Assembly: GCA_964649675.1 (NCBI GenBank)
Contig: CAZYPX010000001.1
Span: 10,470-74,469 of the forward strand
Reading direction: 5' to 3'
Length of the DNA stretch: 64,000 nt
Source of the DNA: an uncultured Rhodospirillaceae bacterium
GTDB lineage: Bacteria; Pseudomonadota; Alphaproteobacteria; UBA9219
Of this stretch, positions 786 to 24,836 are shown in pieces (the first letter of the stretch is position 1; every line of letters starts with the position of its first letter). Below the pieces are notes generated by a model. The model made no database searches, was not told the origin of the DNA, and was given only the letters and a program-made list of their open reading frames with translations. The position numbers and the translations under genes are program-made.

Positions 786-1103
786 ATGGAGGCTACTATG
801 AGCAGCAAATTGAATTACCGCGCCATCATTGACGACGTCCAATCCGAGAAATGCAGTGATGAAGAATTGGCAAACCTTCTCGAAATTTTTGAATACGCCG
901 TCAAGAGCATGGCTACGACCCTGGCCTGCAAGGCATGGTTTGATCTGAATGATTTCGCCACCGCAAAAAAGCGGGGCGTCGATGGCTTTATGCTCGTGCT
1001 TGATAAATATCCCCATGCACAGGCCAACCAATGGAAAGGCACCTTTGAGAAGGCAGGCAGGACGGTGAAGGTTTTTTGCACGCTGGAGAAAGATCAGTCT
1101 TGA
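786..1103 (+). CDS. hypothetical protein (105 aa)
   Basis: ORF with an AT-rich codon profile like the surrounding island; no recognisable motif. Confidence 0.25.
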   Translation: MEATMSSKLNYRAIIDDVQSEKCSDEELANLLEIFEYAVKSMATTLACKAWFDLNDFATAKKRGVDGFMLVLDKYPHAQANQWKGTFEKAGRTVKVFCTLEKDQS

Positions 1104-2029
1104 GGGATATCCCAATCGGCCATGCGGTGCTCCCCGGTCTGATAAAACTGACGCACCAATTTGATGCATTCGAGAAAGTCCACATTTTCTTCCGCAAGCC
1201 TGTTCGCTGCATTCCAGTCAACATCCATGCGCTCCCGTGAGGGGATTAGGATTTCGCTATCCGCAGGGCTCTCCACGTCAAGCTTGATAACGCCAATGCC
1301 ATGCAGCCCAGCCAGCATGCGTAATTCCTTTTCTGCACCCTGAATTTCGGCAGCAACAAGATAACCAAAGTTTGACCACGAAGAGTTGCTGACAGCCTGA
1401 AAATAAGCCTCGCGCACATTCGAACGATTGATCAGCTTTTTTACTTCAAAAGACCACAGCTTGGTTTTGCGATCAGCGATTTGCTTCACGCAATCCTTGA
1501 TTTCTTGATGCCACTCCCGGCTGAGGTCTTCCAAACCAACAAGATCAGGGTAAAGCCAGCGATTGCCTCCGGCACCATGATTGTTGTGCGCGCGTTTTTC
1601 GTTAATGCGCTTGCTAAAGACATTCAGTTCGCGCCATAGGAACTCACTGAGCATGGGATAAAGATCATGCTCGGTATATTTCAGAGATGCATCAGCGACA
1701 ACCTGACGTGTGTTTTCTACCGCCGCCGCCTCGGCTTCATCGGACTTGGTGCTGAAGTAGTATTTGCGCGGCCGACCATCGGTTGTTTTCAGTTGCGGGG
1801 ACCGTTTCTCCATTAGCGGACGTTGTGCACTAATCTCGGCGACCAGTTGTTGAACCAATGCGGCATCGGAATCGAGAGGGATAACCGTGGCCTTACTGCG
1901 CTGCTGTTTTTCACGGCACTCAGCCGGATAAGTCTTGAAAATCCAATCCGCGATTTGCCGCGCGGTGAATTTTTCGTCCGGATGAGACTGCAGGAATTCC
2001 AGAACAGTTTTCGACAGGTTCAGCAGCAT
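1094..2029 (-). CDS. Mrr-like restriction-endonuclease-type protein (N-terminal winged helix plus PD-(D/E)xK core)
   Basis: 311-aa ORF. N-terminal part looks like a wH DNA-binding domain. It carries the motif …NRWLYPDLVGLED…WSFEVKK…, which fits D…(D/E)xK. Confidence 0.45.
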   Translation of the reverse strand: MLLNLSKTVLEFLQSHPDEKFTARQIADWIFKTYPAECREKQQRSKATVIPLDSDAALVQQLVAEISAQRPLMEKRSPQLKTTDGRPRKYYFSTKSDEAEAAAVENTRQVVADASLKYTEHDLYPMLSEFLWRELNVFSKRINEKRAHNNHGAGGNRWLYPDLVGLEDLSREWHQEIKDCVKQIADRKTKLWSFEVKKLINRSNVREAYFQAVSNSSWSNFGYLVAAEIQGAEKELRMLAGLHGIGVIKLDVESPADSEILIPSRERMDVDWNAANRLAEENVDFLECIKLVRQFYQTGEHRMADWDIPQD

Positions 2030-2140: not shown

Positions 2141-2812
2141 ATGACTACCCATAAAACGGGGCTGACGCCGCGCGGCATACGCAACAACAACCCAGGCAAC
2201 CTCCGCAAAACGAATGACAAATGGCAAGGGCTGACGGATCCGCAGACAGACGCGGTTTTTTGCACGTTCAAAAGCCCAATTTATGGGATCCGTGCGCTAG
2301 CGCGAACGCTGATCGCCTATCAGGACGATCACAATCTTCGCACGATACGGCAGATCATAAGCCGCTGGGCACCGACCTTGGAAAACGACACGGTCGCCTA
2401 TATCAAGGCTGTCGTTGAAACCACCGGATTCACGCCAGATCAAACTCTCGACATGCATACCTATAATCATCTGAAGCCGCTGGTTCAGGCGATCATCAAA
2501 CACGAAAACGGTCAACAGCCCTACACAGCCACACAGATCGACAAAGCCTTGGTGCTGGCGGGTGTGGAGCCTCCGGCCAAGAACCTCCAACACACGCGCA
2601 CCGTAAAGGGCGGACAGGCCGCTACGGCGGCAACCGTGGGTCTTGGTGCGCTGGAATCCATCCGTGACAGCCTCGACCCGGCACGCGACACGCTGCAAAC
2701 GCTTGTTCCTTACCTCGACATCGCCAAATGGCTTCTGTTGGTAATCACGTTGCTCGGCGTTGGCGTCATGCTCTGGGCGCGGATTGACGATTACAGGAAA
2801 GGACTGCGCTGA
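2141..2812 (+). CDS. phage-derived protein with C-terminal membrane anchor, first gene of a lysis-type cassette
   Basis: 223-aa ORF with the motif GIRNNNPGNLR, which I recall from phage virion or lysis proteins. It has a C-terminal TM helix (WLLLVITLLGVGVMLWA) and is directly followed by spanin-like genes. Confidence 0.4.
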   Translation: MTTHKTGLTPRGIRNNNPGNLRKTNDKWQGLTDPQTDAVFCTFKSPIYGIRALARTLIAYQDDHNLRTIRQIISRWAPTLENDTVAYIKAVVETTGFTPDQTLDMHTYNHLKPLVQAIIKHENGQQPYTATQIDKALVLAGVEPPAKNLQHTRTVKGGQAATAATVGLGALESIRDSLDPARDTLQTLVPYLDIAKWLLLVITLLGVGVMLWARIDDYRKGLR

Positions 2813-3051
2813 TGTGGACGCTTTTATCTGGCTGGCTAACCAGCAACGTCCTGAAACTGATCGGCTGGAGCACAGTAGCTTTATCCGTCCTCGCCGTCCT
2901 ATTCGGCGCACGCCAATCCGGCAAAAACGCCGAGCGCTATGACCAACTCAAGAAAATCGTGGAGATCAAAGATGCGCAATTACGTGCAACGCTTTCTGCC
3001 CCTAGTACTCGCGCTGAGCTTGTTGAATGCCTGCGGGACGGGGATTTCTAG
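2812..3051 (+). CDS. i-spanin (Rz)-like inner-membrane protein
   Basis: 79-aa ORF with an N-terminal TM segment (LIGWSTVALSVLAVLFGA) followed by a charged or coiled region. Its start overlaps the stop of the upstream gene (ATGA). Confidence 0.4.
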   Translation: MWTLLSGWLTSNVLKLIGWSTVALSVLAVLFGARQSGKNAERYDQLKKIVEIKDAQLRATLSAPSTRAELVECLRDGDF

Positions 3052-3205
3052 ATCAGCCTGTGTTTGTCCTCCAATCAAGGCGTATAGCAAAGAGATTCAG
3101 GTTGCTCTAGCGGAAGAGATCAAAGCTGCTCCTTCCGGCGCTGTATTTCCTCAATTTTTAGGTGATTATGCGCTGCTACGAAATCAAATTGGTCTATGCA
3201 AATAA
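2972..3205 (+). CDS. o-spanin (Rz1)-like lipoprotein, encoded out of frame overlapping the i-spanin gene
   Basis: GGAG lies 7 nt upstream of ATG 2972. There is a signal peptide plus a lipobox-like LLNAC, and the mature part is Cys- and Pro-containing (CVCPPIK). This is the classical overlapped Rz/Rz1 geometry. Confidence 0.4.
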   Translation: MRNYVQRFLPLVLALSLLNACGTGISRSACVCPPIKAYSKEIQVALAEEIKAAPSGAVFPQFLGDYALLRNQIGLCK

Positions 3206-6200
3206 TCCATTTGCGTTGGGTCTGTACTCGAACTTCACACGCAATCGTTTGGCACGTTCTTTAAAAGCAGCCTCTCCACCTTCTAGAATTTCACAAACTT
3301 TCCGTCGAATTTCAGGATTTTCCAACCCACCGCTGAAGTACCGAATTTTTGGAAGCTGATTTTGTTGATGCTTTCCACAAGAAGCAATGATTATCTGGTC
3401 TGCATCAGTATTAACAACAAGATTAGCATTATGAGTCACGATAATAATTTGACGACGCTTTCGCGCTGATTTAAACAGAGGAACGAGTTCATCGAAGATT
3501 GATTTTGGATCAAGGTTTTCTTCCGGTTGATCAATAATAAGAGGGCGGTCATCTTCTTTGTCTACCAGTAAATACAATGATAACAACACGATTCCGCGAG
3601 TACCTGGCGATAGCTGCTTTATATCGACCCCTTCATGTTGGATGCCATATTTTACCGTTATGTGGGCTGTCCCATATAGCCAATCCGCAACGTTGTTTGC
3701 CCAGGATCTAAAAGCTGGACGGTCACTTTTTTCAACTTGTGAATGTTCCAGAAGCCCCTGATCATATTTTTCACGGAATAAATTAAGAGCAGACACTATT
3801 TCATCAGAATTTCCTTTCTCCCATGCCACCTGAAGCTCGTTCTGAACCGCAGTTAAAAGTGCTCCCTTACCCTTAAATGGACCTGCTTTTCGCAAATCAA
3901 GAAGCGATTCTCCGCGCTCCGACCAAGATTTTATATCAGCCCGACGCTGCACAATAAAAGAAAGCTTACCAACGGTGCCTTCCTGAGCCTGAAGGTGCTT
4001 CATTAGCGGTTGGTAAAGTGCCTTTAATTGATTTTCCTCTTCTTGAATTGCTTCCAGTACAGCTCTGTACGCTTTTTTCCGTTCATCAATGATATCTTTA
4101 ATTCGTCCAGAAGCTTTTTCAGCGGCTTCAATGTCGCGTTGCAGCTTAGCTTTCTCGGCCTCATCCTTGGCTATTTTTTGACTTATGCGTGCGTATTTTT
4201 TTGCGTTTTCGTTATCAACGCCAATGAGCTGCTGCAACCTAGCAAGCTCTGCGCTTAACAATTCAAACGTTTGTTCATTCAAAGGTACTCCGGTAGGAAT
4301 TAGCGAGTCCACATGAGAGTTCTGAGCCGAAATCGCAGTTCCCGTAATTGATTTTACCAATAAATCAACTTTCTCGTTTTCACATTTGAGAATGGCATCG
4401 ACATCTCCCGCAAATTGAAAGTGGAATTTGTTCCATTGATCCTCATCGAGAAGAGCCGCAGCATGGGTTGTATGTAGTTTTCTAAATGTTTGCGGAAACA
4501 CAGAAGCCTTTATGTTCTTAATTTCTTCCTGTAAGTTTTTGAGAGCTAGTTGCCGTCTTTTCGCGGCTTCGAGTTTCGCACGTACCGAGTCAAGCGCTAA
4601 TGCAACTTCTCCATGCTTTGTTGCACGCTCTTCTTTGCCTTTCCCGACAAGCGACTGTCGATCTTTCTTATCGTTTTCTATGGCTCTTTCTTTTTCTCTC
4701 AATTGTTTCTTTAGTGCTGGAAGACTATCTATTTTTTCACGTTCTGAATTAAGCTCATCCGAAAGTGCCGATAAATGTTTTTCATGGTAGTCCCGAGAGG
4801 CCTTTGCTTGCGCTGAGCGTAAATCAAGTAACTCTCGAAAACTTCCTGCACCCATTCGATCTTCTAACTTATGAGCTTGAAAGATAACCCGTTCTATCTC
4901 TTCCATTAACTTATCTGTCGGCCCTTCTGCGGTACATAAATCTTCAACAAACTGCTGTGAAAGATACTGGACACGAGGAACATCTAGTAACTCTTCGATT
5001 TCAACAAATCGAAGGCCGTTGCTTGTAGACTCTCCCGCGCCCCATACCAGAGTAGCCGTTTCGTCGGTAAATAACTCATTCGCACGATGAATAAATGATC
5101 TCTCGTTCAACTGCGATAATGCCGAATAGCCACCGACGGCAACAAGATCCGCAAGCGCTGTTTTTCCAGAGCCGCGTGCGCCGATGACCGCTATTAAACC
5201 GGAATTAAGTTGTATGCATGAGGTTTCCAGCCAAGCTGCATCGCTTACGTGAACACTTCGAATAATCTGCGAGGGCGTTCCTCCTGTCGGGCAATTCTCA
5301 GCGATGCAAACGCGTCCATCTGGTTCTATGCACGCTTGCCTAAGTGATTCAAATGTCAAATCACCCTTAATCCATGAATATCTGTTTAAAGCGGGATTTG
5401 CGACAGCAGCTTGCTCATGAGCATCGCAGCCATGTAAACATGGCTTTCTTCCATCGTACATTTCTTCGAGTTGAACGGTTGATAGCCTTCCTTTCCCCAA
5501 CCAAAACTCTCTTTGTTTGGGGTTCGATGAAAATATGATGTGCGATACCCGTTCAATTTCGATTCTGGTTGCAGCAAAAGTAGCATCTTGCTGCAGTCCT
5601 GAGGTTCCATCCGAACCATTACCAGAAACCGCAACGAGAATATTTTGAAGTGCCCATTCGTTCTGCCTGAAAACACCTCTTAGTTGATCTAGGGAGATTT
5701 TAAATTGATTGGTTCCTGCTGAAAGCGCCTGCTTTTCATCCAAGGTTGCACCGCAGCACGCCCTTCCAAGCAGTATTAGATCCTCGCGTTCACATCTGTA
5801 GGTTTCTTTGCCGTATTCAAAGGAAAAGTTCTTTAAAAAACGTTTGATTTGATCGACATGATCAGGATCGTCAGGTGATACGAGAAAATGAGTGTTTATA
5901 GCTGTCCCGCGAGATGTTCCAACGATTAGCCGAAATTCAATGTTCGGAAAAATTAATCCGACATTTTTTAGACGTCCTGTTGCTTTATATTCCAACACTT
6001 TCTCGTAGTTCTTCAGGCTTAAGTAATCTGTATAGCCGAGCTAAAATAAAATGATCAAAAGAAGGAAACCAAATGGGATCCCCGCCTTCGCGGGGATGAC
6101 GAGTATGGGATTCATTTCAAAATATAAAACCGTCATCCCCGCGAAGGCGGGGATCCCATTTTTTGAATCATTTTATTCTGGATCAGCTATAATGCCAAGG

Positions 6201-6394
6201 GCACGAATTTGAGGATCAGACGATTCAATTTGAGAAAGAAAGGAATTCCACGGATCTTCTCCATTAAATTGATCGTTTAATATTGTTTCAGGCGTATGTA
6301 TGTGGGGATCCCAGCGATGCCAAACTGATCCTTCAGGATTTTTTGTAAAATCTCTCTTTGTATTTGGTTCCTCTGTTTTAGCGGCAATTTGCAT
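3194..6394 (-). pseudogene. PHP-domain fused to ABC/SMC-like coiled-coil ATPase (about 1000 aa), reading frame interrupted by a palindromic insertion
   Basis: The upstream 73-aa ORF (6394-6173) carries WDPHIHTPET (PHP motif I). The 934-aa ORF continues the PHP fold (NIEFRL, INTHFLV, CLHGCDAHE matching GSDAH-like motif IV). It then carries Walker A VIGARGSGKT and a coiled coil of about 400 aa. The ABC signature LSPGTRG, Walker B LIIDQPEENLD and H-loop VTHN follow. Both ORFs are in the same frame (coordinate mod 3 = 1) and are separated by the 6041-6176 element, which supplies TAA and TAG stops. Confidence 0.6.
6041..6176. mobile_element. MITE-like palindromic element (about 136 bp) inserted inside the PHP-ATPase gene
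   Basis: Perfect 28-nt inverted repeat AATGGGATCCCCGCCTTCGCGGGGATGAC / GTCATCCCCGCGAAGGCGGGGATCCCATT around a 33-nt core. It is flanked by outer inverted ends AAAATAAAATGAT / ATCATTTTATT that carry stop codons. Confidence 0.6.
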
Positions 6395-6493
6395 AACTAT
6401 CTCCCCACGATATTCTGTCGTTCCAGATTAAACTCGATAGTTCACGAGCATACTGTTAGGCAATAAAAGACCGACTCGTTTGATAAAGCCGAG

Positions 6494-9001
6494 TTAACCC
6501 GCTACGTTTCCGCGATATTCCACAACAGTCAGAACGGTATCGTATAAACCAACATCTTCAAGCTCGTGCTTGTTGATACCAGTGTATTCAAGGCTAGCAT
6601 CCTCATAGCGTTTAAATTTGTAGACAGCATCATTCATCAATGCGCTGTTGAAAACGCCAAGGCTGACCAGTAGCTCGAAGTCTTTGACGATCAATCCCGT
6701 AACTTTTTTAAACAGGCCGGGTTCAAGCTGAGTGACAACATCTCTTAAGGCTTTCTCGCGGTAATCCGTGAGATACATAAAAACGGGAATACGCGTGGCA
6801 AACTTGATAAGCTTTTCTTGAATTTGCTTGCGAAGGCTTTTGTATTCTCTTTCTTCTTCGCTTAACTGCTTCTTTTCTTTAGCCGTCAGTTCACGCTCAT
6901 TGGCTGCTTGTTTGGCCTTTTGGACAGCATCTGATTTGTTAATGATCGTTTCAATATCCTCATTGAGTGTGCGAAACCCTTCAATTCGCATTAATGCATC
7001 CATCGCGTCCTTATTTTTCATCAAGCGGTGCAGAGTGTTGTTGTCCACATTGACCAACAGAGCACTTTCCCAACGCCGTGCCAGCAGCGTGGCTGTCGTA
7101 CCACTCATTGCCATATCTAATACACCGGCGGCATTGATTTGCTTCATCGAACTACCGTCGTAAGCCAGTACGGGCAGGAAGTGTATAAACTCCTCAACCT
7201 TTTTCTCGGGGTTCGCTTCATCAATGTTCAAACGGCAGCTGTAATCTGCGATCTGACGAAGCGCACGATCGGGTGCAAAATCAAAAACGTAACACTCACG
7301 CTTGATGATTTCCTGCTTGTTCGGTGATTTGCTATCAGGGTTTTTGATGACCCACGGCGTCTGTACGCGGAACGCGGCCTGAAAATATGTCTCAGGACTT
7401 GAGCAATTTCTCAACATGAGAATACCAGTCCAAGGCTTAACCGAGACACCAGTGGTTAACTTACCGCAAGAAAGTGTAATGGTCTTTGAAATTAAAGGGT
7501 TGTCCATTGCATCTTCAACAGGTGGTAATGCCGCAACACCGAGACCTGCCTCAGAACCTGCAGCAACAATAATCTTATAGTCCTGGTAAAATTTGTTCTG
7601 CCGTTGCTTAAGCAAGTTTTTCATCGCATGGCACGATGAGACAGAAGGCAAAAACCAAAAAGTATGAGAAAGCACGTTAAGCAGTCGCGCGTCTGAAAAA
7701 GGCATGGGTGGTTTTTCTGCACCAAGCTTCAAGTTATCGACAGTTGTTTCCAAGAACGCACCACGTATCAAATCCAGCCATTTCTGGACATCGCTTTCAT
7801 ATTTAAACTTAGCTTTTGAGCCTTCACCGTTCGCTGAAAAAAAGATGTTCAAGTCGAACTGGTTATACTCCCCGCCCATGGCGATCTCACGAATAGAATC
7901 CGGCAACTGGTAGGTTAGCATGACCAAACGTGGCAAAGACTCATAAGGGTTGTTTTCGCCCTTCCATTTTTCCTTGGCGCGCTGCTCATCAGAATATGTC
8001 CAATTATAAATCTGTTCCTCGATGAACTCACCAGCAGCAATAGCGCGGAAAGGAGTGCCTGAGAGATAAAGGTATGCCGAAGTTGTAATCGGCATATTGC
8101 TCTCGTCAAAAAATTCCAAGCCTCTACCTTCGGCATCACGTATTTCTCGCTCGTCCTCGGCTTCAAAGAGATCTTTCGCGTTCTCGCGCCACGCGCCGTA
8201 ATGATATTCGTCAAAGGCTACGCAATCCCAATTTGTGGTGTGCACCCATTCATTTCTCGCCTTGATGCCACCAGCGGAATTTTTGCCCAAATAGTCTTGA
8301 AATGAGCCAAAGCAAACGATAGGCCTCTTCGGGTCAGCTTCCTCAAAAGAAAGACCGTTCCTGGAAATAAACTGCCAGCCTTTGAAATCGACGTGAGATT
8401 TAAGATCTTCCTCCCAGGCGCTCTGCACAGCGGGCTTAAAGGTCAAAACTAAAATGCGCTTCCATCCCATCTTTTTGGCAAGCTGATAGGTGGCGAATGT
8501 CTTGCCAAAACGCATTTTCGCGTTCCAAAGGAAGTGTGGCGTCTTCTTAGGATTTTCTTTCCTGAAACTTTTAAAGTAGGCAGCTGTTTTCTCTACAGCT
8601 TCCTGCTGTTCGGGTCGCATCCCAAAATCCAGCGTCCGGTTCTCCTCATTCTCAATCCCATCACGCACGGCGACGATTGACGCCTTCACGTCTTTCACGG
8701 AACACTTGAACCATTCGCCATCAGGGTTCTTGAAACCCTTCTTCTTCAAATGGCGATGAATATCGTGATCAGTGAAAGAGCTGCCGTCCTTGCGCATGGC
8801 AGATTCTTCAAGCACGATTTCGTACGGAAGTTTTCCGGGACGAAGCGTCGGGTATTGTTGTGCAACACGACTTTTAACATCCACGCTGGTAAAGCCAACT
8901 TTTAACAACCCGGCATATTGGGGGTTTGTATCACGGTAAGCATAGATTGTTGGCTTAGCCTCTGGCCTTGGCGGAAAGAAAACATCACTCATCCGTGACA
9001 T
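6494..9001 (-). CDS. SF2 helicase (ResIII/DEAH-like) with N-terminal T5orf172 (GIY-YIG-like) domain
   Basis: 835-aa ORF. N-terminus [22 protein letters not shown]…EWFKCS fits T5orf172. It is followed by Walker A-like RFGKTF and a DEYHYG box. The gene overlaps the upstream MTase gene by 17 nt. Confidence 0.6.
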
Positions 9002-10553
9002 CCCCTATCAAATCACTATCCATTGGACGAACCATTGATTCAATAAATGCGATGTCCTTCTTGTCCAAAGCATATTTCTTGTACAACTTCTCGTCCGTCC
9101 ACTCCTTGGAAAAATCCTGCATAGGCACGAAGGTATAGACCCTACGGGTAGTATCCTGAGATGGCTTGTGCAGGAGAATTAGTAGCCGTGTAAGGCGGCA
9201 TGATAGGTAGGATAACACGCTCTCAGCTTGTTTTTGGGATTCTAGCGGCCCAATACATAAATATGTTTCAGAAGAGATCGTACCCGGCTCACCAATAAAA
9301 GGGGTGCTTATGATCTTATGTGGGTAGGTATCTTTGTTGCCAGTCCCTGGAGCAGCTCGACCAGTGAAAACTTTCCATTTATCGATGTATTGGGTTCCGG
9401 ATGTAATCCTTTCTCTTGGGGTGTAGCCTACGCCCCCGTTCTGATAAACTGTCACATCATTGCTACGTTTGGCTGTTTTACCCTTGAATGTAGTCTCTAA
9501 ACCGAACGGCTTCCTAGAACTAACCAAACGATCAAAGCGCTTTGTTTCAGGCAGAGCGAGTGTTTGGGTTTGACCAGTCTCGACAGCGATGACTTTCTTA
9601 AGAATAGAAAGGCCTTCATTGAAACGAATAAAGACATCAGCTCCTTCTTCTCTAAGAGGCCGAACGGTTGTCGAAACCGGCCAATCCTTAAAGTGAGTGC
9701 TTACCTTACAAGGACCTGGATTGTCGCGGTCCCAAAGAAAGTAACAGACGCCTCCTTTGAGGCCGACACCGGGAAAAACATCGGAAGCACTTAGATAGTC
9801 ATCAATAGAACGCAATCGGTTGTCGGAAAGCATCCCGTCTCTGAATTCATCCAGTCCCTTGCCACCAGAAAACCATCTGGAAGGAATAATCATGCTCAAA
9901 TATCGCGGATTTAATTTTTTAGCTTGTTCAACAAATTTATCGTAAATGGGTGCAGCGCTAGTTCCGAAGCCAGAGTCACTCAACTGGTAGGGCGGGTTTC
10001 CTACAATGACGTCAAATCTCATGTTGAATATCCTTTCCGGCTCGTTGGTATGTATAAATTCATAGGCATGTGTTTCTAGTCCTTCTTCGCGCGAATAATT
10101 CTCTTGGCTTGCTCCACAGAACTCGCATTTTCCATTTTTCCAAGCATGTTCGGTGTGCACGTAGCGAATGTTTCCCGCCTCCCGCTTAAACGCATTTGTG
10201 ACAGAATAGTCTCCGTTAGCTTTTTTCGAACAGTACACCGAACGTCGCGATAAAAGGGATGTCATCTCAGTGATGGAAATCCCGTAAAGCTGTTTTCCGT
10301 AGATATGGTCAATGCGCTTTTGCAAATCTGGAATTTCCTTTTCAAGTCCTTTCAAAAGGCGCTTCGCTATTTCTCTCAGGAACACACCAGATTTGCACAC
10401 AGGGTCAAGAAAAGTCGCGTTTTTGTCCTGCCAAATCGTTTCAGGCAAAAGGTTAAGAACAAGATTTGCGACTAGGGGCGGCGTAAAAACCTCGTCGTTG
10501 CTCAAGTTGGCAAGACAGCTCAAAACATCCGGATTGTAGTTGATCTTAAGCAT
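8985..10553 (-). CDS. gamma-class N6-adenine DNA methyltransferase
   Basis: 522-aa ORF with motif [13 protein letters not shown], motif [13 protein letters not shown] and motif IV NPPY in the order X-I-IV, as in the Eco57I/TaqI type. Confidence 0.6.
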
Positions 10554-11202
10554 TGTCGCTCAACTTCAAAAAATGCATCAGCGGAAATTCTCTGACAGGC
10601 TTCGGGATGATTGCTGGTTCGTTTAAATCGGAAAAAAGAGTCATTTCGCCCATTGGCTGGTAATCCAGCAAATGAGCTAAAGAATAGTCCCGGCGCTTGA
10701 TCATGCTTCCATTGACCGCAGACCATTCAGCAAAAATGATGGGTTCTTGCTTGCCACAAACCGTTTTCATAGTCAGCGCATCGCCCCACAGTATGTTTTT
10801 GCTAAAAATGAATTTGACCGACTGGCGACAGGCCTCGTTGCATTCTTTGCTATAAAGAGACGTATACCGGTCATCAAAAAGATCGAAAAGTCTCTGACGA
10901 CATTGAAAGACGTTATCCTCCAGAATGTCTACGCCGTAGATTGAAGAGACTGCTAAAACAGCGTATCTTTCGTATTCGAGTTTGCTTTTCTTATAGCGGC
11001 TCTCTACGATGGCCAACTTGCGCCGCAAAACCTCGATGAGAAAATTTCCCGTTCCGCAGGCAGGTTCCAAGAAGCGGGATTCGATCCTATCGGTTTCCTG
11101 CCTAACGAGATTAAGCATCGCATTTACTTCCCTTTCAGGAGTAAACACCTCTCCGTGATCATTCACACGTTGTTTTGATTTGATTTGCAAAGCGCTAAAC
11201 AT
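10546..11202 (-). CDS. MTase-like protein with motifs X and I only (truncated or degenerate N6A-MTase module)
   Basis: [14 protein letters not shown] and [12 protein letters not shown] are present but no NPPY/F. The likely start is ATG at 11202, which overlaps the Xis stop by 8 nt (ATGTTTAG). The ORF track extends to 11358 in overlap with xis. Confidence 0.45.
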
Positions 11203-11419
11203 TTCTTCCCTTCTTTTTGCTGCTGCGCGCCCAGGCGTCAATTTCATCCAATCGAAAGCGCCACGTGCCGCCGACTTTGAAGGCAGGAATTTCGCCTCGT
11301 GTAAGAAGGGTATAGATTGAGCGTTCCGTGACCTTGAGGTAAGCGGCGACTTCCTCAACGGTAAAGACCTCTGGCAAGCGTATCTTTTGCGACTCTGTCA
11401 TAGGGCGTAAAATATTCAA
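11195..11419 (-). CDS. AlpA/Xis-family (MerR-like HTH) excisionase/regulator
   Basis: 74-aa ORF: …FTVEEVAAYLKVTERSIYTLLTRGEIPAFKVGGTWRFRLDEIDAWA, a typical phage Xis/AlpA HTH_17. It is the first gene of the minus-strand operon. Confidence 0.55.
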   Translation of the reverse strand: MNILRPMTESQKIRLPEVFTVEEVAAYLKVTERSIYTLLTRGEIPAFKVGGTWRFRLDEIDAWARSSKKKGRNV

Positions 11420-13093: not shown

Positions 13094-14083
13094 ATGCGTT
13101 TTGAAAAAGCGGAAGACTTGCTTAACCTTGCCTTTGCCATGCAGTCATCTGCGGATGGTGTTGCACTGGCAGAAATAGAAGAGATGTTCGAGGTCTCGCG
13201 CCGAACAGCTATGCGAATGCGCGATGCAGTCGTTCGCGTCTATCCGCAGGCCGAGGAAACCACGGACGAGAACAGGATCAAGCGCTGGCGCATTCCGAAT
13301 GCGGTGAACGGCAGACATCTCTGCCTAACCCCCGACGAACTCGCGACCCTTGATATGGCTGCCAAGGCGTTCAACGGGAAAGGCCTTGCACTACAGTCCA
13401 AGGCGCTGCGTTCGTTATGCGGAAAAATCAAAAGCTTTCAACGATGTGACATTTCACGCCGTGTCGAACCCGATCTGGAGGCGCTGATCGAAGCCGAAGG
13501 GCTTGCCGCACGTCCTGGCCCGAAGCCCAAAATCCAAGTTGAACACCTTCATTCTTTGCGCGAAGCCATTAAAGCCTGCCGCATCGTAGAGCTTCATTAT
13601 CGTGGCAAAGGCAAGAAGGACGCCGAGGTCAAACGCATTTGCCCTTACGGCTTTCTTTACGGGCACCGCCACTATCTTGTTGGCGGCGCTGCTCAGAAGG
13701 ATCGCGCGGGATCCTATTATCTCTTTTGCCTCTCCCAGATTGATGGCGTAACCATCACAAAGGAAAGCTTCCGGCGGGATCCGTCATTCAACCTGCAATC
13801 CTATGCTGAACAAGCTTTTGGCGTATGGATGGAAAAGCCGCAGGAAATTGTCTGGAAGTTCTCACCGCGTGCTGCTGTTGCTGCACGGGATTTTGTGTTC
13901 CACCCCAAGCAGACGATTGAGGAAAAAAAGGACGGTTCTCTGATCGTGCGCTTCAAGGCAGGAGGCATGCTTGAGATGGCATGGCATCTGTACATGTGGG
14001 GTGATCAGGTTGAAGTGATTAAGCCACATGAACTGAAGAAAATGTTAAAGAGCAGACCGTCAAAGTGGGAAGGTTTGCCCTAA
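13094..14083 (+). CDS. WYL-domain transcriptional regulator (HTH-WYL-WCX; BrxR/CapW-like)
   Basis: 329-aa ORF with an N-terminal HTH and a WYL core …RHYLVGGAAQKDRAGSYYLFCLSQIDGVTI. Its stop overlaps the start of the downstream nuclease gene (TAATG). Confidence 0.65.
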   Translation: MRFEKAEDLLNLAFAMQSSADGVALAEIEEMFEVSRRTAMRMRDAVVRVYPQAEETTDENRIKRWRIPNAVNGRHLCLTPDELATLDMAAKAFNGKGLALQSKALRSLCGKIKSFQRCDISRRVEPDLEALIEAEGLAARPGPKPKIQVEHLHSLREAIKACRIVELHYRGKGKKDAEVKRICPYGFLYGHRHYLVGGAAQKDRAGSYYLFCLSQIDGVTITKESFRRDPSFNLQSYAEQAFGVWMEKPQEIVWKFSPRAAVAARDFVFHPKQTIEEKKDGSLIVRFKAGGMLEMAWHLYMWGDQVEVIKPHELKKMLKSRPSKWEGLP

Positions 14084-15390
14084 TGCTCAATCCATTCGAT
14101 CAATACGATGGCGATGAAAATAGGCTAACGCATGCGTTGGCGATCACCCTTGAACGTAGCTCCGCCTTTCTAGAAGCATTTGTTAATCAATGTGGTGCGA
14201 AGCGTGCACTCGGCAAAAAAGTCAGGGTGGAGATACAAGTTGTCATGCACTCTGCTGATGCTTCTGAGGAAACAGCCATCCCAGATCTCTTACTTGTTGA
14301 TGAGGAAGGACGGCGAGGTCTCATTTTTGAGGTTAAGGTAGGCTCTCCATTGAAATTAGAGCAACTAAAGCGCCATGAATCTCGCGCTCGTGACTATGGA
14401 ATAGATGTCGCAGGTAAATACGCGATCACAGGCAGACAAATTGATGCATTGAAGATTGAACAATGGAAGCAAACTTCTATTCAGAAAGACTGGCACCACA
14501 TCGCGTGGACTGCAATTTATGAGTCAGCCAACAAACTAAAAGCTAAATGCAGCTGGTCTGCTGATCTCGCTGATTACCTTGGAATTGTAGCGGCTCAGAG
14601 AGGAGATGACGATATGGATGGTAGGGTAAAATTGACAACATTTACCGGCATTCCCTTTAAAGCACCGCATAGAAAAAAAAATCAAGAAGGCATGTATGAC
14701 TACGATCCAAACCAAGCAAAGCGACATCTATTGGCTTTAGTCGACTGCCTCGAAAGTGATCAAAGATTATTGACCGACCTTGGTTTTCTTAAAGGACAGA
14801 AACCACGGCGTCGCGGCAGTGTCGAGGTATCGAACGCTGTATGGGATTATCTCTCACCGTTGGGGCAAGAGGATCACCACATTAGCGGCTATCATTTTAC
14901 CATCGGTATCGCCACAGATCATGCAAGTGCGATGCTGACGGTTCCGAATGCAAGTGACGAATTTAGAAAATTAAGGCGATTTGTGAAAGATAAAGGCGAA
15001 GCTGCATTTGAAAAGCTTATACATAGTTTTCTCCAGAGAATTAGAGATTTAAACCTCGACAGGTTTGGTTTTCAGCCATGCATTGTCATGAAACAGCGCC
15101 GCTATAGAACCATGCGAGAGGTTTATGCAGTCGATGGTTCTTTGACATTCGATTTAAGAACGCTTGTTGGTCGTCCTGCAGAGGGGAAAGCGCCCGCCAT
15201 ACATAGGCAGCCCGAATGGACATCGTTCTGTTATCAACTTCTGAAAGATAAAAATTCAAATATCCAGTTTCAGATCGGTCTTCATTTTATGTACGGTTTT
15301 ACAGAGGAATTAAATCGGGCAGAAGCGGCTGAATATTTTAAAAATTCGCTGAGAGCTACAACAGTCTTTTTGCAGGAGTTAAAGTCTTAA
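14083..15390 (+). CDS. PD-(D/E)xK nuclease-family protein
   Basis: Carries the motif AIPDLLLVDEEGRRGLIFEVKVGS (PD…E-V-K). It is translationally coupled to the WYL regulator. An A9 homopolymer lies at 14673-14681 inside the ORF. Confidence 0.5.
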   Translation: MLNPFDQYDGDENRLTHALAITLERSSAFLEAFVNQCGAKRALGKKVRVEIQVVMHSADASEETAIPDLLLVDEEGRRGLIFEVKVGSPLKLEQLKRHESRARDYGIDVAGKYAITGRQIDALKIEQWKQTSIQKDWHHIAWTAIYESANKLKAKCSWSADLADYLGIVAAQRGDDDMDGRVKLTTFTGIPFKAPHRKKNQEGMYDYDPNQAKRHLLALVDCLESDQRLLTDLGFLKGQKPRRRGSVEVSNAVWDYLSPLGQEDHHISGYHFTIGIATDHASAMLTVPNASDEFRKLRRFVKDKGEAAFEKLIHSFLQRIRDLNLDRFGFQPCIVMKQRRYRTMREVYAVDGSLTFDLRTLVGRPAEGKAPAIHRQPEWTSFCYQLLKDKNSNIQFQIGLHFMYGFTEELNRAEAAEYFKNSLRATTVFLQELKS

Positions 15391-18300
15391 GCCACTGCCT
15401 CTTTTTCCATTCCATTCACGTACGCAGAACGATCCGCATAAGCCTTCGCCCAACAGAGCGTGTTAACGAGGCGCATCTGATCGATTGTATTGCAGGATAT
15501 CTCCAACAACCGTGGATTGGCATAAATCACGGCCAAGCATCGGGCGCGGCTGATGGCGACGTTTAGCCGGTTTCTGCTGAATAAGAATTCAATGTTGCGA
15601 GGCAATTCCTCTGCCGACGAGGTCACCATCGAAATCAGCACAACAGGCGCTTCCTGCCCTTGAAACCGGTCAACAGTGCCAACGCGCGCGCCTTCCGGCA
15701 GCGTTTTTTCCAAAAGGTCAACTTGCATATTGTAGGGCGTGACGACCAGAATATCTTCAATGCCTAGTTCGTGCTTGTCGCCAACTTCATCCACCCACGT
15801 CATACCTAACAGGCTTTCATAGGTGTGTTTGAGACGCTCGGCTTCTTCCTCGCTCTTTTGCGAACATCCTTCATGCTCGACTTCAACAAACCGCAAGCCA
15901 GCGGATATGATGGCATCCGGATCCCGATTGCCATCAGCTACAATATGCCGTCTCGCGTTATCCAGATCTGGTTGCAAACGACCATCGTACACAGCGTCTG
16001 AAATAAAGTGGCAAATCGCCGGATGCATGCGCCGCGTTGTAGCCAGGAATATCCCCTGTTCAGGCGGCACAGTCGCCGCTTCGCCAAGAAGATACTCCAG
16101 CGCAGAAAGCCCTGAGCTGCCCGGATGAATGCCTTGAATAGGCTGGGACAACTGCATCTGATCGCCAACAAGAACAATGTTCCGCGCGGACGTCCCCATA
16201 GCGACGATATTGGCAATGCTGACTTGACCAGCCTCGTCGATGAACAGGTAATCCAAAACCTGATCGAATGCCGGACGCGAAAAGAGCCAAGCTGTTCCTG
16301 CGACCAGATTATAGGCTTCGCTTTCAGCCTCTTCATTTTTCTCCGTGTTTTGGATGAAGCCCTTGCTATCTATCGCATGATCCTCGCCAGAGCATTTTTT
16401 GACCCCACGAAAATGTATGTTCTGCTCAACGGCGCGCTTTTCCACGGCGGCAAGCAAGTTATTGATTGCTTTATGAGAGTTTGAGGCAACGCCCACCCGT
16501 TTACCCTGTTTTAGCAGCTCCACAATTGCATGAGAGGATGTGTACGTCTTGCCCGTGCCCGGCGGCCCTTGGATCAGGATATGGCTGTTATCCAAACGCG
16601 CTACGGCGCTCACTGCTGCTAACGTAGGATCATCTCCCGGTTTGATAATAGGGTCGCCGTGTTGGCAACCATTGATGTGTGGCAACTCTTTACGCAAGAT
16701 GCTCGTTACGGCTGGGTATTGTCCTTGATTGCCATTCGCGACGGCCTCGGCATAGCGGAGAATGGCACCGCGCAAGACTTTGTCCTCTAACGGCCCTGGC
16801 GGAATGAGCGACAGACAATCAGGCAGATCTGTCTGTTTGTTGCTAATCTTGAGAGCAATCCGTCGGGCTTTATCGTCCAGACCTACGATGGTGCCGAAAC
16901 GCTTGCCCGTTAATGAGCTGATCGGGTCAGTTCCAACACCCATTTTGAAATCTTGTGCTGGAAACTCGAACTCATAGACGAGTGATCTGTCGCGGGGACT
17001 CAATTTGTAAGGCGTAATGGATTTGTCGAGTGTGCACTTGCCGATGCACTCAGCGTCTTCGACCATTTCCTCATCCGACATATCCAAGCGTGTAAACAGC
17101 GCCCACCAACCCGGCTTTGACTCACGGCGATGAAACTCAAGCAAGTGACCGACAAGCTCACGCCACGGCTTCTCGGTTTCAGGAACGCCTTCCTGCAGTT
17201 TTGCGATGAGTTGGGCTGTACGCGCCTCAGCCTCTTGTCGTGCGGCGTCCTTCTCCGGATTTTCGGGTTCGTCAGAATTAGGGGAAAACCAATCGACATC
17301 TGAGGGCCGCAACCTCAACAACCAATCACGGCACATCAAGGTCGAGCGGCAGTCGAATTCGTTGTAATCGGAGATTTCTCTCAGAATGGCATCATCGCCC
17401 AAAGCCCGCCATTTCTCGTACATGACAATGCTGTCACCGGCTGTCTTGACTTCACCCGCGCGTTTCTCGGCATAGAATGTTTCCATATTCTTAATGGAAT
17501 AACGCGGCTCGGAAACGCGAACGGCCTCGCGGACGACTTTGTAAAGATCGACCAGCTTCCGGTTGCGCAGAAGGAAATCAACTTCGGCCTCGCGCGTGCC
17601 GTGGTACATGGCCAAATTCTTTAGAGCCGTCTCCTCATACGCGGCGTAGTGGTAGATGTAGGCATCTGGATAGGCCGCAAGCCGAGCCATGATGAAATCC
17701 ATGACAGCCTCAAAAGCCTTTTTCTCCTCCTGGCGATCATGCGCCCAGAAAGCCTTAAACTCTGGTTCTCGCTTTTCATTTAGTAGGACGAAGCCGAACA
17801 GATATTCAAGACGCGGATTTCCGTAGTGGGGATCGCCTTCCATATCGAAGAAGAGATCGCCATCGTTAGGCCTGGGAAGACGAGCAAAACCTTTATTCGC
17901 CTGAAGAGGCAAGATTTCGCATTTGTCCTGACCATCGTCTCTCTTGGCAATTTGTAAGCGGGCTTGTTCGCGCAGGCGCGTTAAGGCATCCGGTTGCAAC
18001 TTGGGAATGGCTTGATCAACTGAAAGATTGGCTAGCTCCCGCATGCTGTTGATACCGGCACGGCGTAATTTCTTGATCTGGCTGCCCTGTATATTGGCCA
18101 CCATACGTAGATGTTCGCTCCGTTCCCATTCCTCTTCGCAACGAAATGCCCAACGGCACTTGCTGCACCGCGAACAAGGCTCGCCGGTGCGAGGCATATA
18201 TTTCTGTTTAATGAAATCTAGAAAACGCTGCCCTGCCAACCCTTGATAGTACTGGAAATCAGAAACGCGCAGTGTGACCTTGCTCTTATTGCCGAGCACG

Positions 18301-23858: not shown

Positions 23859-24836
23859 CTAAAACAACTCGCAAACCATGCAACGAACCGAACCGCCGCC
23901 GAATTTCTCAATCGTTGGGATTGGCGCTTTGATGAATCCCGTCACGTGATTTCGGTATTGCTTGATTTGCGTCCGTGTAAGTGCGCCAAAAGCGCACTGC
24001 GATAGAGCCAAATAACGTTCGTTACTACGGCCAACCACTTCCAGTGCATTTCCACTGAAACTGCGTACCTGATCTGATGTCAGCACGATTACTTCATGGT
24101 TTCGCTCAAGCTCGCTTACAACGCGCTGGCGGTCTCCCTGCACAATCATGTCGGCTGCTATAGCAGCGTACCCGGTACCGATATGGGCTACTACGTTCGT
24201 GTGATAAACAGGTTTGCCTGTGCTATCATCACAAGTGTCAAATACAACCGGTTTATAATCGGTAATCCTGCTCCAGATCTGGATTAAGTCGTCGTTGGTG
24301 CGGCGTGACCGCGCGACATAGGCTTCTCTGTTAATATGGTCGAGGACAAAAACACCCGTTCCCTCCAAACTTTGCCCCTGTCTTTCCGCGCGCGAAAGAT
24401 CAAAAACAAAGTCGTACTTTTCTTTAAGGAAGTTTGTTATGTCATCTCGTCGTTCACGACGGCGGCTTGGCGTCGCCATAGGATAAAGAAACATCGCACC
24501 ATCGGGCGTCGTTGACACCCAATTGTTTGGGAAAACATCATCGGGACAGTTTTTGCTTCCTACAAAACAGGTAACTTGGACACCAGCTTCCAAAAACCGA
24601 TCACGCAAATCGCGCATCTCACGTCTGGCATTTTCAGCGACCTCAGCAGCATTTAAGTCGTTTTTGTGCTGAAATCCGTTATCGACGCCTGTTTCGTGGT
24701 TGTAATTGAACGCAACCGGCTCGATCATAAGAATATGATTGGTAGATTGTGGTCTGTCTTGCATAAGCTCTCCTTTAAATGTCGTTTTGCTATAAAGTGA
24801 ATTGCTGTGCGGCCTCTTTGGGCGTTGAGAGCCCAC
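23859..24836 (-). CDS. guanidino-group modifying enzyme superfamily protein (DDAH/amidinotransferase/CtlX-like)
   Basis: 325-aa ORF with a C-terminal GGGSVRCMVCEL active-site Cys context typical of the amidinotransferase/DDAH/ADI fold. Confidence 0.5.
   Translation of the reverse strand: MGSQRPKRPHSNSLYSKTTFKGELMQDRPQSTNHILMIEPVAFNYNHETGVDNGFQHKNDLNAAEVAENARREMRDLRDRFLEAGVQVTCFVGSKNCPDDVFPNNWVSTTPDGAMFLYPMATPSRRRERRDDITNFLKEKYDFVFDLSRAERQGQSLEGTGVFVLDHINREAYVARSRRTNDDLIQIWSRITDYKPVVFDTCDDSTGKPVYHTNVVAHIGTGYAAIAADMIVQGDRQRVVSELERNHEVIVLTSDQVRSFSGNALEVVGRSNERYLALSQCAFGALTRTQIKQYRNHVTGFIKAPIPTIEKFGGGSVRCMVCELF

What the first reader, a model, noticed from the sequence alone, without database searches (positions are those of the whole stretch)
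3194..6394. Single-polypeptide PHP-phosphoesterase fused to an ABC/SMC-like coiled-coil ATPase: candidate defence effector of unrecognised type
PHP motifs (H-x-H in WDPHIHT, plus E, H and a GSDAH-like D-x-H) sit upstream of a Rad50/SbcC-like ATPase split by a coiled coil of about 400 aa (Walker A, then LSPGTRG, Walker B and the H-loop at the C-terminus). In SbcCD/Mre11-Rad50 the nuclease is a separate calcineurin-like subunit, and in the OLD, Gabija and PARIS systems the ATPase pairs with a TOPRIM domain. A PHP nuclease fused in cis to this ATPase is not an arrangement I can match to a named system. The gene lies in a defence island next to R-M-like and nuclease-helicase genes.
Basis: partly seen in the sequence, partly recalled or inferred. 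Interest (0 to 1): 0.7.

Follow-up and report, generated by a model that had tools for sequence, protein, structure and literature searches.

The report
Transposon-broken TrlF (Ppl-like) nuclease-ATPase gene
This is a real gene for a PHP phosphoesterase fused to an SMC/Rad50-like ATPase, but it belongs to a named, widespread family (TrlF) related to the known anti-phage protein Ppl, and this copy has been split by a small mobile element.

Summary
Window 3194-6394 (minus strand) encodes one 1013-aa protein once a 157-nt MITE-like insertion with a TA duplication is removed. The exact join is 6394-6190 + 6030-3194.

The interpretation as an "unrecognised type" does not hold. The protein scores 678 bits against NCBIfam NF045780, "TrlF family AAA-like ATPase" (cutoff 350), over the full model length. 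More than 4000 intact single-polypeptide homologues exist in many phyla, and relatives sit on more than 1100 plasmids.

The family aligns with the anti-phage protein Ppl (PHP + ATPase, single gene) over 641 columns (hhalign probability 99.6%).

Across 82 related loci no neighbouring gene is conserved, so TrlF is a stand-alone gene carried in mobile or defence islands.

By analogy with Ppl, an intact protein is probably a nucleotide-regulated nuclease acting on DNA ends; this is inferred, not shown. This copy is most likely inactive.

Verdict: known kind, low interest.

The parts
6190..6394 (-). 5' part of the trlF-like coding sequence (aa 1-68 plus the first base of codon 69). The start ATG is at 6394-6392, preceded by GGGGAG. 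This part carries the PHP motif H31-x-H33 (6296-6304).
   Evidence: The 73-aa ORF 6173-6394 ends in a stop codon supplied by the inserted element.
6031..6191 (-). MITE-like insertion. The 157-nt element lies at 6033-6189 and is flanked by a duplicated TA (6190-6191 and 6031-6032). It has terminal inverted repeats of about 30 nt and an internal perfect 31-nt inverted repeat (6071-6101 / 6131-6161).
   Evidence: Removing it restores the reading frame and the conserved ALGITDY motif. There is no other copy in the window. The 27-nt core palindrome occurs in at least 120 metagenome stretches, but the full element was not recovered there.
3194..6030 (-). 3' part of the coding sequence (rest of codon 69 to the stop codon at 3194-3196). 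Gene callers report it as a 933/934-aa ORF starting at a spurious GTG (5998).
   Evidence: (P0001).
5300..6331 (-). PHP (polymerase and histidinol phosphatase) phosphoesterase domain, aa 22-312, interrupted by the insertion between I68 and T69. The putative metal ligands are H31, H33, D70, E100, H116, H268, D271 and H273.
4937..5263 (-). ABC/SMC-type ATPase N-terminal lobe, aa 325-433. It contains Walker A GARGSGKT (5159-5182) and the conserved QYLSQQF (Q-loop region).
   Evidence: (Rad50 E 2.7e-7 over profile positions 314-380).
3665..4915 (-). Insert between the two ATPase lobes, aa 441-857. It has long antiparallel helices (466-577 out, 657-749 back), a conserved apex region (about 583-656, with W601, F604, G610-D611-V612 and no CxxC hook), and an extra alpha/beta module (758-857).
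   Evidence: Full-length AF2 model: pLDDT 82.5. Foldseek hits are Smc, MukB, JetC, Rad50 and RecN heads with coiled coils.
3242..3664 (-). ABC/SMC-type ATPase C-terminal lobe, aa 858-998. It contains the signature motif LSPGTRG (3593-3613), Walker B PLIIDQPE plus the D-loop (3521-3547) and the H-loop THNAN (3422-3439).
   Evidence: Pfam AAA_21 2.7e-11 and SMC_N 1.7e-9. The Ppl, Spaf_1101 and AriA models hit this region.

Best explanation
Window 3194-6394 (minus strand) is a chromosomal copy of a TrlF-family gene. It encodes a single polypeptide of about 1000 aa with an N-terminal PHP metal-dependent phosphoesterase/nuclease domain fused to an SMC/Rad50-like ABC ATPase. The two ATPase lobes are separated by a coiled-coil insert.

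Shown: the family is a sister of the known single-gene anti-phage protein Ppl and has the same architecture. It is a stand-alone gene carried in variable mobile or defence islands and on plasmids.

Inferred, by analogy with Ppl and with SMC/Rad50-type sensors: an intact TrlF dimerises through its ATPase heads or coiled coil. The ATPase senses nucleotide state and/or foreign DNA ends. It then licenses the PHP domain to degrade invading or replicating DNA, most likely as a 3'-5' exonuclease on ends or nicks.

In this genome a 157-nt MITE-like element inserted at a TA inside codons 68-69. This separates the H-x-H motif (on a 73-aa fragment) from the rest of the PHP active site. The copy is therefore most likely an inactive and recently formed pseudogene.
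For: Identity:
- NCBIfam NF045780 TrlF_fam_ATP scores 678.3 bits against a cutoff of 350, covering aa 22-998 and profile positions 2-943 of 944.
- More than 4181 homologues were found. The 120 listed are nearly all 986-1016 aa, and many are named TrlF family.
- At least 569 species genomes carry a relative.
- 1146 plasmid records match, including annotated TrlF and Ppl genes.

PHP fold. SMC/Rad50-like ATPase.

Homology with Ppl:
- hhalign gives probability 99.6%, E 1e-24, over 641 columns. The alignment spans the GSDAH motif, the coiled coil and both ATPase lobes.
- The Ppl HMMs also hit the protein.
- Ppl is a single-gene PHP + ATPase defence (PMC11482910). It is described as an NTP-inhibited ssDNA 3'-5' exonuclease that detects 3'-OH ends (PMC12904381).

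Stand-alone status: no neighbour is conserved across 82 loci. Contexts include Gabija, type I R-M, Abi genes, integrases, IS91, Tn7-like genes and conjugative plasmids.

Disruption. The same junctions occur in a separately deposited ENA contig record.

Recent disruption: there is no other frame defect. Only 5 of 190 otherwise invariant positions differ, which is within the family range of 0-6.

Island: GC is 43-47% across 3-10.5 kb, against 51% for the window.
Against: - No experiment shows that any TrlF-clade protein restricts phage or plasmids. The only genetics is the Photorhabdus TRL operon, where the phenotype is temperature-dependent growth arrest, it maps to trlG, and no trlF mutants were recovered (PMC7554251).
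- The protein falls far below the Ppl equivalog cutoff (108.5 against 1000 bits), so Ppl's mechanism may not transfer.
- The first 257 aa did not enter the hhalign alignment with Ppl.
- The Pfam PHP model (PF02811) does not hit the sequence. The PHP assignment therefore rests on predicted structure and motifs.
- The claim of inactivity is inferred from sequence only.
Confidence: 0.85

Rival explanations
1. One reading: a PHP nuclease fused in cis to an SMC-like ATPase is a defence effector of a type not yet recognised.
For: The architecture is real. PADLOC and Pfam give only partial ATPase hits. No solved structure of such a fusion was found in the PDB copy.
Against: The full-length match to the curated TrlF family is nearly twice the cutoff. 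Thousands of homologues are already annotated. Ppl has the same architecture, is homologous, and has been a published anti-phage gene since the Gao et al. screen (PMC11482910, PMC12904381).
Confidence: 0.03
2. It is one component of a Photorhabdus-type temperature restriction locus (trlR-trlF-trlG). On this view it causes regulated growth arrest together with a TrlG (AlbA_2 + HATPase_c_4) partner, rather than acting alone.
For: The family takes its name from that operon. Deleting the operon relieves growth arrest at 36 C (PMC7554251).
Against: No AlbA_2/HATPase_c_4 protein was found among the ORFs of at least 120 aa in window 1-26000. No conserved partner appears in 82 related loci or in the plasmid and chromosomal contexts inspected. 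In Photorhabdus the phenotype maps to trlG, not trlF.
Confidence: 0.04
3. TrlF works as the effector of a composite system with the adjacent upstream genes on the same strand: the T5orf172-helicase at 6494-9001 and the Eco57I-type methyltransferases at 8985-11358.
For: The genes share a strand and are tightly packed. The upstream genes overlap each other, and only 99 nt separate them from trlF. The whole block shares low GC.
Against: The helicase and methyltransferase together match a type IIG restriction-modification model, so they look self-sufficient. This neighbourhood recurs in none of the 82 related loci, and TrlF neighbours differ everywhere.
Confidence: 0.05
4. It is a housekeeping DNA-repair enzyme, a functional analogue of SbcCD or Mre11-Rad50 in which a PHP nuclease replaces Mre11.
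For: Rad50, RecN and SMC heads are the closest solved structures for the ATPase part. PHP domains act as proofreading or repair nucleases in Pol III, PolX and EndoQ.
Against: The distribution is patchy and horizontal. The gene is frequent on conjugative plasmids and integrative elements. It sits in a low-GC island. It is dispensable here, because it is disrupted. There is no zinc-hook CxxC at the apex.
Confidence: 0.04
5. The split gene is still functional. Either the 73-aa and 934-aa products complement each other, or the ATPase fragment acts alone.
For: The 3' ORF is intact and the remainder shows no extra decay.
Against: The break lies inside beta-strand 2 of the PHP barrel. It separates H31/H33 from D70 and the other ligands. 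The 3' ORF has no obvious ribosome-binding site or conserved start, only a GTG at 5998 that is simply the first start codon after a stop.
Confidence: 0.04

Closest known systems
TrlF family AAA-like ATPase (NCBIfam NF045780; prototype Photorhabdus laumondii TrlF, PluDJC_RS01880, WP_011144772.1)
   Same: There is a full-length profile match above the curated cutoff. It is a single polypeptide of about 1000 aa with a PHP domain followed by an ABC ATPase. The Photorhabdus protein was annotated "histidinol phosphatase" (PMC7554251). The nearest relatives are 51-57% identical over at least 95% of the length.
   Different: No trlG or trlR neighbours are present. This copy is interrupted by a MITE-like element. 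It is only about 28% identical to the enterobacterial plasmid TrlF proteins sampled.
Ppl (anti-phage protein; NCBIfam NF042955, PADLOC PDLC02208; e.g. E. coli WP_015059139.1, 891 aa)
   Same: It is a single-gene system with the same domain order: PHP, then ATPase N-lobe, coiled-coil insert and ATPase C-lobe. hhalign gives probability 99.6% over 641 columns, including the GSDAH motif. Both are carried on plasmids and mobile elements.
   Different: The score is far below the Ppl cutoff (108.5 against 1000 bits). TrlF is about 100 aa longer. The N-terminal 257 aa did not align by profile. Anti-phage activity and the NTP-inhibited 3'-5' ssDNA exonuclease mechanism are reported only for Ppl (PMC12904381).
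SbcCD / Mre11-Rad50
   Same: It has an ABC ATPase head split by an antiparallel coiled coil. Rad50 is the best PDB sequence match (E 2.7e-7), and Rad50, RecN and SMC structures lead the fold search. The ATPase is coupled to a metal-dependent nuclease.
   Different: The nuclease is a PHP domain fused in cis, not a separate calcineurin-like Mre11/SbcD subunit. There is no CxxC zinc hook. The coiled coil is much shorter (about 100 aa per arm). The gene is not a conserved housekeeping gene.
ABC-ATPase plus nuclease defence proteins: OLD, Gabija GajA, PARIS AriA/AriB, Septu PtuA/PtuB, Lamassu LmuB, Wadjet JetC
   Same: The logic is the same: an SMC/ABC-type ATPase sensor is coupled to a nuclease effector. 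The C-terminal ATPase lobe hits the AriA, PtuA, Old and LmuB models.
   Different: In those systems the effector is a TOPRIM, HNH or other nuclease, often on a separate subunit. None of them uses a PHP domain.
Spaf_1101 family AAA-like ATPase (NCBIfam NF045781)
   Same: It shares the C-terminal ATPase lobe (133 bits).
   Different: The score is well below the cutoff (475). Only aa 871-996 match strongly. Its architecture was not examined here.

Membership tests
TrlF family AAA-like ATPase (NF045780) | Full-length match to the curated equivalog HMM above its cutoff | tested here: met
   678.3 bits against a cutoff of 350. Residues 22-998 align to profile positions 2-943 of 944, E 2.9e-203.
TrlF family AAA-like ATPase (NF045780) | Single polypeptide with an N-terminal PHP-like domain and a C-terminal ABC/SMC-like ATPase | tested here: met
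   Reconstruction. Structure predictions and fold searches. Listed homologues are nearly all single ORFs of 986-1016 aa.
TrlF family AAA-like ATPase (NF045780) | Uninterrupted, expressible open reading frame | tested here: not met
   A 157-nt insertion with a TA duplication splits codons 68/69 and introduces a stop codon.
Photorhabdus TRL operon (trlR-trlF-trlG) | An adjacent trlG (AlbA_2 + HATPase_c_4) and a small regulator trlR | tested here: not met
   No such domains occur in the neighbouring ORFs. No partner is conserved in 82 related loci.
Photorhabdus TRL operon (trlR-trlF-trlG) | Temperature-dependent growth restriction | not testable with these tools
   The phenotype is known only from PMC7554251, where it maps to trlG.
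Ppl anti-phage protein (NF042955 / PDLC02208) | Match to the Ppl equivalog HMM above its cutoff | tested here: not met
   108.5 bits against a cutoff of 1000, with the best stretch only at aa 858-998. PADLOC Ppl scores 92 bits.
Ppl anti-phage protein (NF042955 / PDLC02208) | Same domain architecture and detectable homology beyond the ATPase lobe | tested here: met
   hhalign of the TrlF alignment against E. coli Ppl gives probability 99.6%, E 1e-24. TrlF 258-999 aligns to Ppl 201-889, including the GSDAH motif.
Ppl anti-phage protein (NF042955 / PDLC02208) | Confers phage resistance; NTP-inhibited 3'-5' ssDNA exonuclease | not testable with these tools
   Reported for Ppl in PMC11482910 and PMC12904381. 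No data exist for TrlF.
PHP superfamily phosphoesterases | Distorted (beta/alpha)7 barrel fold | tested here: met
PHP superfamily phosphoesterases | Conserved metal-binding His/Asp/Glu residues (H-x-H, E, H, D-x-H) | tested here: met
   H31, H33, D70, E100, H116, H268, D271 and H273 are invariant in the 31 sequences of alignment A1 and lie at or after predicted strand ends. Their geometry in the model was not inspected.
PHP superfamily phosphoesterases | Match to Pfam PHP (PF02811) | tested here: not met
   No hit at E <= 1. Only weak PHP_C (PF13263) hits were found, in 20 of 31 members (best E 0.0081).
SbcCD / Mre11-Rad50 | Rad50/SbcC-type ABC ATPase with a coiled-coil insertion | tested here: met
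SbcCD / Mre11-Rad50 | Separate calcineurin-like (Mre11/SbcD) nuclease subunit | tested here: not met
   No such neighbour is present. The nuclease is a PHP domain in cis.
SbcCD / Mre11-Rad50 | CxxC zinc hook at the coiled-coil apex | tested here: not met
   There is no CxxC between aa 578 and 657 and no conserved Cys there in the family consensus.
OLD / Gabija GajA / PARIS | TOPRIM nuclease domain paired with the ABC ATPase | tested here: not met
   No TOPRIM hit in Pfam, NCBIfam or PADLOC. Only the ATPase lobe matches AriA and Old.

The most novel reading that the evidence does not exclude
TrlF-clade proteins have never been tested for immunity. They could be a stand-alone anti-phage or anti-plasmid nuclease whose trigger or chemistry differs from Ppl. 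One example would be an EndoQ-like PHP endonuclease licensed by an SMC-like head that recognises DNA ends or topology. If so, a very widespread single-gene defence family (at least 569 species, and many conjugative plasmids among the 1146 records that match TrlF or Ppl) would still lack a mechanism. The window's own copy would remain a dead example.
Probability: 0.25. Interest if true: 0.4.

Novelty: already known. Interest (0 to 1): 0.15.

Why it matters
It matters little for discovery. The gene belongs to a curated, widespread family, and its PHP + SMC-like ATPase architecture is already represented among known defences by Ppl.

Three points have modest value:
- The work gives structure-based support that the TrlF N-terminus is a PHP nuclease-type domain, which Pfam does not detect.
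- It shows that TrlF is a stand-alone gene with no conserved partner in this clade. This contrasts with the Photorhabdus trlFG operon that gave the family its name.
- It gives a clean example of a defence-island gene recently inactivated by a TA-targeting MITE-like element.

The TrlF family itself remains experimentally untested as a defence system, and that is a reasonable target.

Tried and rejected
- **Pfam on the reconstructed protein and on 31 family members.** There was no PF02811 PHP hit, only weak PHP_C. The PHP call had to be tested by structure instead.
- **PDB sequence searches, single sequence and profile.** No solved TrlF or Ppl homologue was found. Only Rad50, AriA and SMC heads matched.
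- **Search for a conserved partner.** I clustered all ORFs within 4 kb of TrlF in 82 loci. The largest clusters were integrases, in 5-6 loci. Immediate same-strand neighbours vary in size and presence. A 156-aa ORF follows TrlF in Halomonas and Tistrella but is not general.
- **An apparent second paralogue in L007** turned out to be a spurious high-GC ORF.
- **MITE copies.** There is no second copy in the window. The metagenome scan found the 27-nt core palindrome widely, but not the full element with its outer repeats. Its family and its autonomous partner remain unidentified.
- **Rfam.** There were no hits in the window. **tRNA scan.** None found.
- **Source of Ppl.** I first recalled Ppl as coming from Rousset et al. 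2022. That paper does not mention it. It is attributed to Gao et al..
- **Primary Ppl mechanism paper.** It was not found in the library, so only the review statement is cited.
- **Source organism.** It could not be named. GTA-like tail genes just outside the window hint at an alphaproteobacterium.
Full report
**1. What is in the sequence**

On the minus strand there is a 73-aa ORF (6394-6173) and a 934-aa ORF (5998-3194). Between them lies a short element with nested inverted repeats.

Reading across the junctions shows ...GCC CTT GGC ATT A|TA-GCTGATCC......CTCGGC-TA|TA|CA GAT TAC... Removing 159 nt (window 6031-6189) restores GGC ATT ACA GAT TAC, which reads G-I-T-D-Y. The removed stretch is a 157-nt element plus one copy of a duplicated TA.

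The result is a continuous ORF of 3042 nt, or 1013 aa. ALGITDY is an almost invariant motif in homologues, so the reconstruction is correct to the base. The exact join is 6394-6190 + 6030-3194.

The element has these features:
- imperfect terminal inverted repeats of about 30 nt;
- an internal perfect 31-nt inverted repeat;
- a TA target duplication.

This is the anatomy of a MITE. The window holds no other copy. The 27-nt core palindrome is common in metagenomes (at least 120 stretches), but the complete element was not recovered there. A separately deposited ENA contig record of this contig carries identical sequence across 3001-6600, insertion included.

**2. What the protein is**

The reconstructed protein matches NCBIfam NF045780, "TrlF family AAA-like ATPase". 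The score is 678 bits against a curated cutoff of 350. Residues 22-998 align to profile positions 2-943 of 944.

Weaker sub-threshold hits go to the Spaf_1101 family and to the anti-phage protein Ppl. Pfam sees only the ATPase (AAA_21, SMC_N, weak AAA_23) and no PHP domain.

A search of 5.8 billion proteins returned more than 4181 homologues. The 120 listed are nearly all 986-1016 aa, 51-57% identical over about 97% of the query, and many are already named "TrlF family AAA-like ATPase". The truncated 933-aa ORF of this same contig is also in the database (P0001).

A scan of one genome per species found at least 569 species with a relative. They include Alpha-, Beta- and Gammaproteobacteria, Actinomycetota, Acidobacteriota, Bacteroidota, Planctomycetota and others. 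A tblastn search of plasmids found 1146 records, 824 of them conjugative, whose features are annotated as TrlF family or Ppl.

**3.

An AlphaFold2 model of residues 1-338, built from a 21-sequence alignment, has mean pLDDT 78.8 and pTM 0.78.

- In Foldseek against the PDB, ranks 1-16 are all PHP proteins: a Bifidobacterium PHP phosphoesterase, RNase AM, and the PHP domains of Taq and E. coli Pol III alpha. Probabilities are 0.93-1.00 and E-values run from 1e-5 to 5e-2.

H31, H33, D70, E100, H116, H268, D271 and H273 are invariant in the 31 sequences of alignment A1. They sit at or just after predicted beta-strand ends, as expected for PHP metal ligands. Twenty of 31 family members give weak Pfam PHP_C hits. 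The PHP fold is therefore supported.

**4. The ATPase**

Walker A (GARGSGKT), the QYLSQQF segment, the signature LSPGTRG, Walker B plus D-loop (PLIIDQPEENLD) and the H-loop (THNAN) are all invariant.

A family profile finds Rad50 (E 2.7e-7) and AriA in the PDB.

The full-length model (pLDDT 82.5, pTM 0.65) has this layout:

| Region | Residues |
|---|---|
| PHP domain | 25-312 |
| ATPase N-lobe | 325-433 |
| Long helices out | 466-577 |
| Apex region | about 583-656 |
| Long helices back | 657-749 |
| Extra alpha/beta module | 758-857 |
| ATPase C-lobe | 858-997 |

Foldseek matches it to Smc, MukB, JetC, Rad50, RecN, cohesin/condensin, AriA and LmuB heads. RNase AM matches the PHP part. There is no CxxC hook at the apex.

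**5. Relation to Ppl**

I took E. coli Ppl (WP_015059139.1, 891 aa) from an annotated IncF plasmid. It aligns with the TrlF profile at hhalign probability 99.6%, E 1e-24, over 641 columns. TrlF 258-999 aligns to Ppl 201-889. The alignment starts at the shared (L)HGSDAH / LRGSDAH PHP motif and runs through both ATPase lobes.

Ppl is described as a single gene with an ATPase domain and a PHP domain that restricts T7 and is countered by Bas63 gp130 (PMC11482910). A 2026 review describes it as an ssDNA 3'-5' exonuclease with two properties (PMC12904381):
- it is inhibited by NTPs bound to both its PHP and NTPase domains;
- it is activated by nucleotide depletion together with 3'-OH ends made by phage homing endonucleases.

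Ppl came from the Gao et al. screen. A PHP nuclease fused in cis to this kind of ATPase is therefore an established defence architecture.

**6. Origin of the name TrlF**

In Photorhabdus laumondii a three-gene "temperature restriction locus" (trlR, trlF, trlG) stops growth at 36 C. Every suppressor mutation that mapped to the locus was in trlG (AlbA_2 + HATPase_c_4) and none in trlF; some tolerant clones had no trlG mutation, and one carried a fur mutation. The authors left TrlF's role open (PMC7554251).

**7. Neighbourhood**

In the window the gene is preceded on the same strand by:
- two methyltransferase genes (10546-11358, and 8985-10553 of Eco57I type);
- a T5orf172 + SF2 helicase gene (6494-9001).

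The 522-aa methyltransferase and the helicase together match a type IIG R-M model.

Further on lie a WYL/WCX regulator, a 441-aa unknown protein and a TM0106 RecB-like nuclease fused to an SF1 helicase (MkoA-like). After these come argH and other housekeeping genes, including polA, typA, dinB and fabF.

GC is 43-47% over 3-10.5 kb, against 51% for the whole window. The "defence island" context is a fair description.

No TrlG-like gene is present. I clustered all ORFs within 4 kb of TrlF in 82 related loci. No neighbour family occurs in more than 6 loci, and those that recur are integrases.

Annotated contexts elsewhere are varied:
- Gabija;
- type I R-M and Tn7-like genes;
- integrases and IS91 in an ICE-like region;
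- Abi-family genes and partition or transfer genes on plasmids.

TrlF is therefore a stand-alone cargo gene of mobile and defence islands. It is not part of an SbcCD-like pair and, in this clade, not part of a trlFG operon.

**8. State of this copy**

The insertion falls inside beta-strand 2 of the PHP barrel, between I68 and T69. H31/H33 are left on a 73-aa peptide, and the rest of the protein has no native start. The copy is most likely non-functional.

Apart from this there is no frameshift or stop codon. The sequence departs from only 5 of 190 positions that are invariant in the 30 homologues, and family members range from 0 to 6 on the same measure. One of the five changes is S270C in the GSDAH motif. 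This suggests the disruption is recent.

**9. Mechanism**

Shown here:
- domain composition, with intact catalytic and ATPase motifs;
- homology with Ppl;
- autonomy of the gene;
- its mobile and island context;
- the disruption.

Inferred: the intact protein acts as a self-contained sensor-effector. The SMC/Rad50-like head, probably dimeric, reads nucleotide state and/or DNA ends. It then gates a PHP nuclease that degrades foreign or replicating DNA.

I put about 0.5 on a Ppl-like exonuclease mechanism for intact TrlF proteins. I put about 0.85-0.9 on the identity and pseudogene statement.

**10. Verdict**

The claim of an unrecognised type is not correct.

This is a MITE-disrupted member of the known TrlF family, which is related to Ppl. 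The novelty rating is "already known" and interest is low (0.15).

The one open point lies outside this window: TrlF-clade proteins themselves have not been tested for defence.

Noticed in passing
window 6031-6191: A 157-nt MITE-like element with a TA target duplication. It has terminal inverted repeats of about 30 nt and an internal perfect 31-nt hairpin pair. Its 27-nt core palindrome GGGATCCCCGCCTTCGCGGGGATGACG occurs in at least 120 metagenome stretches (median GC 65%), but the whole element was not found elsewhere.
   Followed up: partly
window 6494-11358 (minus strand): An R-M-like module just upstream of trlF. It comprises a 270-aa methyltransferase-like ORF, a 522-aa Eco57I-type methyltransferase and an 835-aa T5orf172 (GIY-YIG-like) + SF2 helicase protein. 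The last two match the C-terminal and N-terminal halves of one type IIG PADLOC model, but in swapped gene order.
   Followed up: partly
window 13094-18806: A WYL/WCX regulator (329 aa) overlaps by 19 nt a downstream 441-aa ORF with no family hit. This pair converges on a 1139-aa TM0106 RecB-like nuclease + RNase_H_2 + SF1 helicase protein (MkoA-like, 158 bits). This may be another defence unit in the same island.
   Followed up: no
window 3001-10500: GC is 43-47% here, against about 51% for the window. This is consistent with horizontal acquisition of the trlF + R-M-like block.
   Followed up: partly
window 2141-3051 (plus strand) and 1094-2029 (minus strand): Three ORFs downstream of trlF (79, 223 and 311 aa), the first two convergent with it. 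The 223- and 311-aa ORFs had no significant hit in Pfam, NCBIfam or PADLOC; the 79-aa ORF was not scanned.
   Followed up: partly
L001 15860-22109 (just beyond window position 1): Phage-tail or GTA-like genes (Phage-tail_3 + Rcc01698_C, Phage_BR0599, phiJL001 Gp84-like) flank the island. They hint that the source is an alphaproteobacterium.
   Followed up: no
L002 10994-15378 and L004 11015-15423: In Halomonas and Tistrella, TrlF is followed after 15 nt by a 156-aa ORF with no Pfam hit, and then by Gabija (GajA OLD-TOPRIM + GajB UvrD). This trio is shared by two distant genomes.
   Followed up: partly
window 26130-27998 and 34050-35876: Two paralogous glutamine-hydrolysing asparagine synthase-like genes lie 6 kb apart. 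They may flank a biosynthetic cluster.
   Followed up: no
window 23859-25854: Two adjacent ORFs (overlapping by 47 nt) with matches to the eukaryotic-type DDAH Pfam model (one strong, one weak) lie next to the argG/argH/argE-like genes.
   Followed up: no
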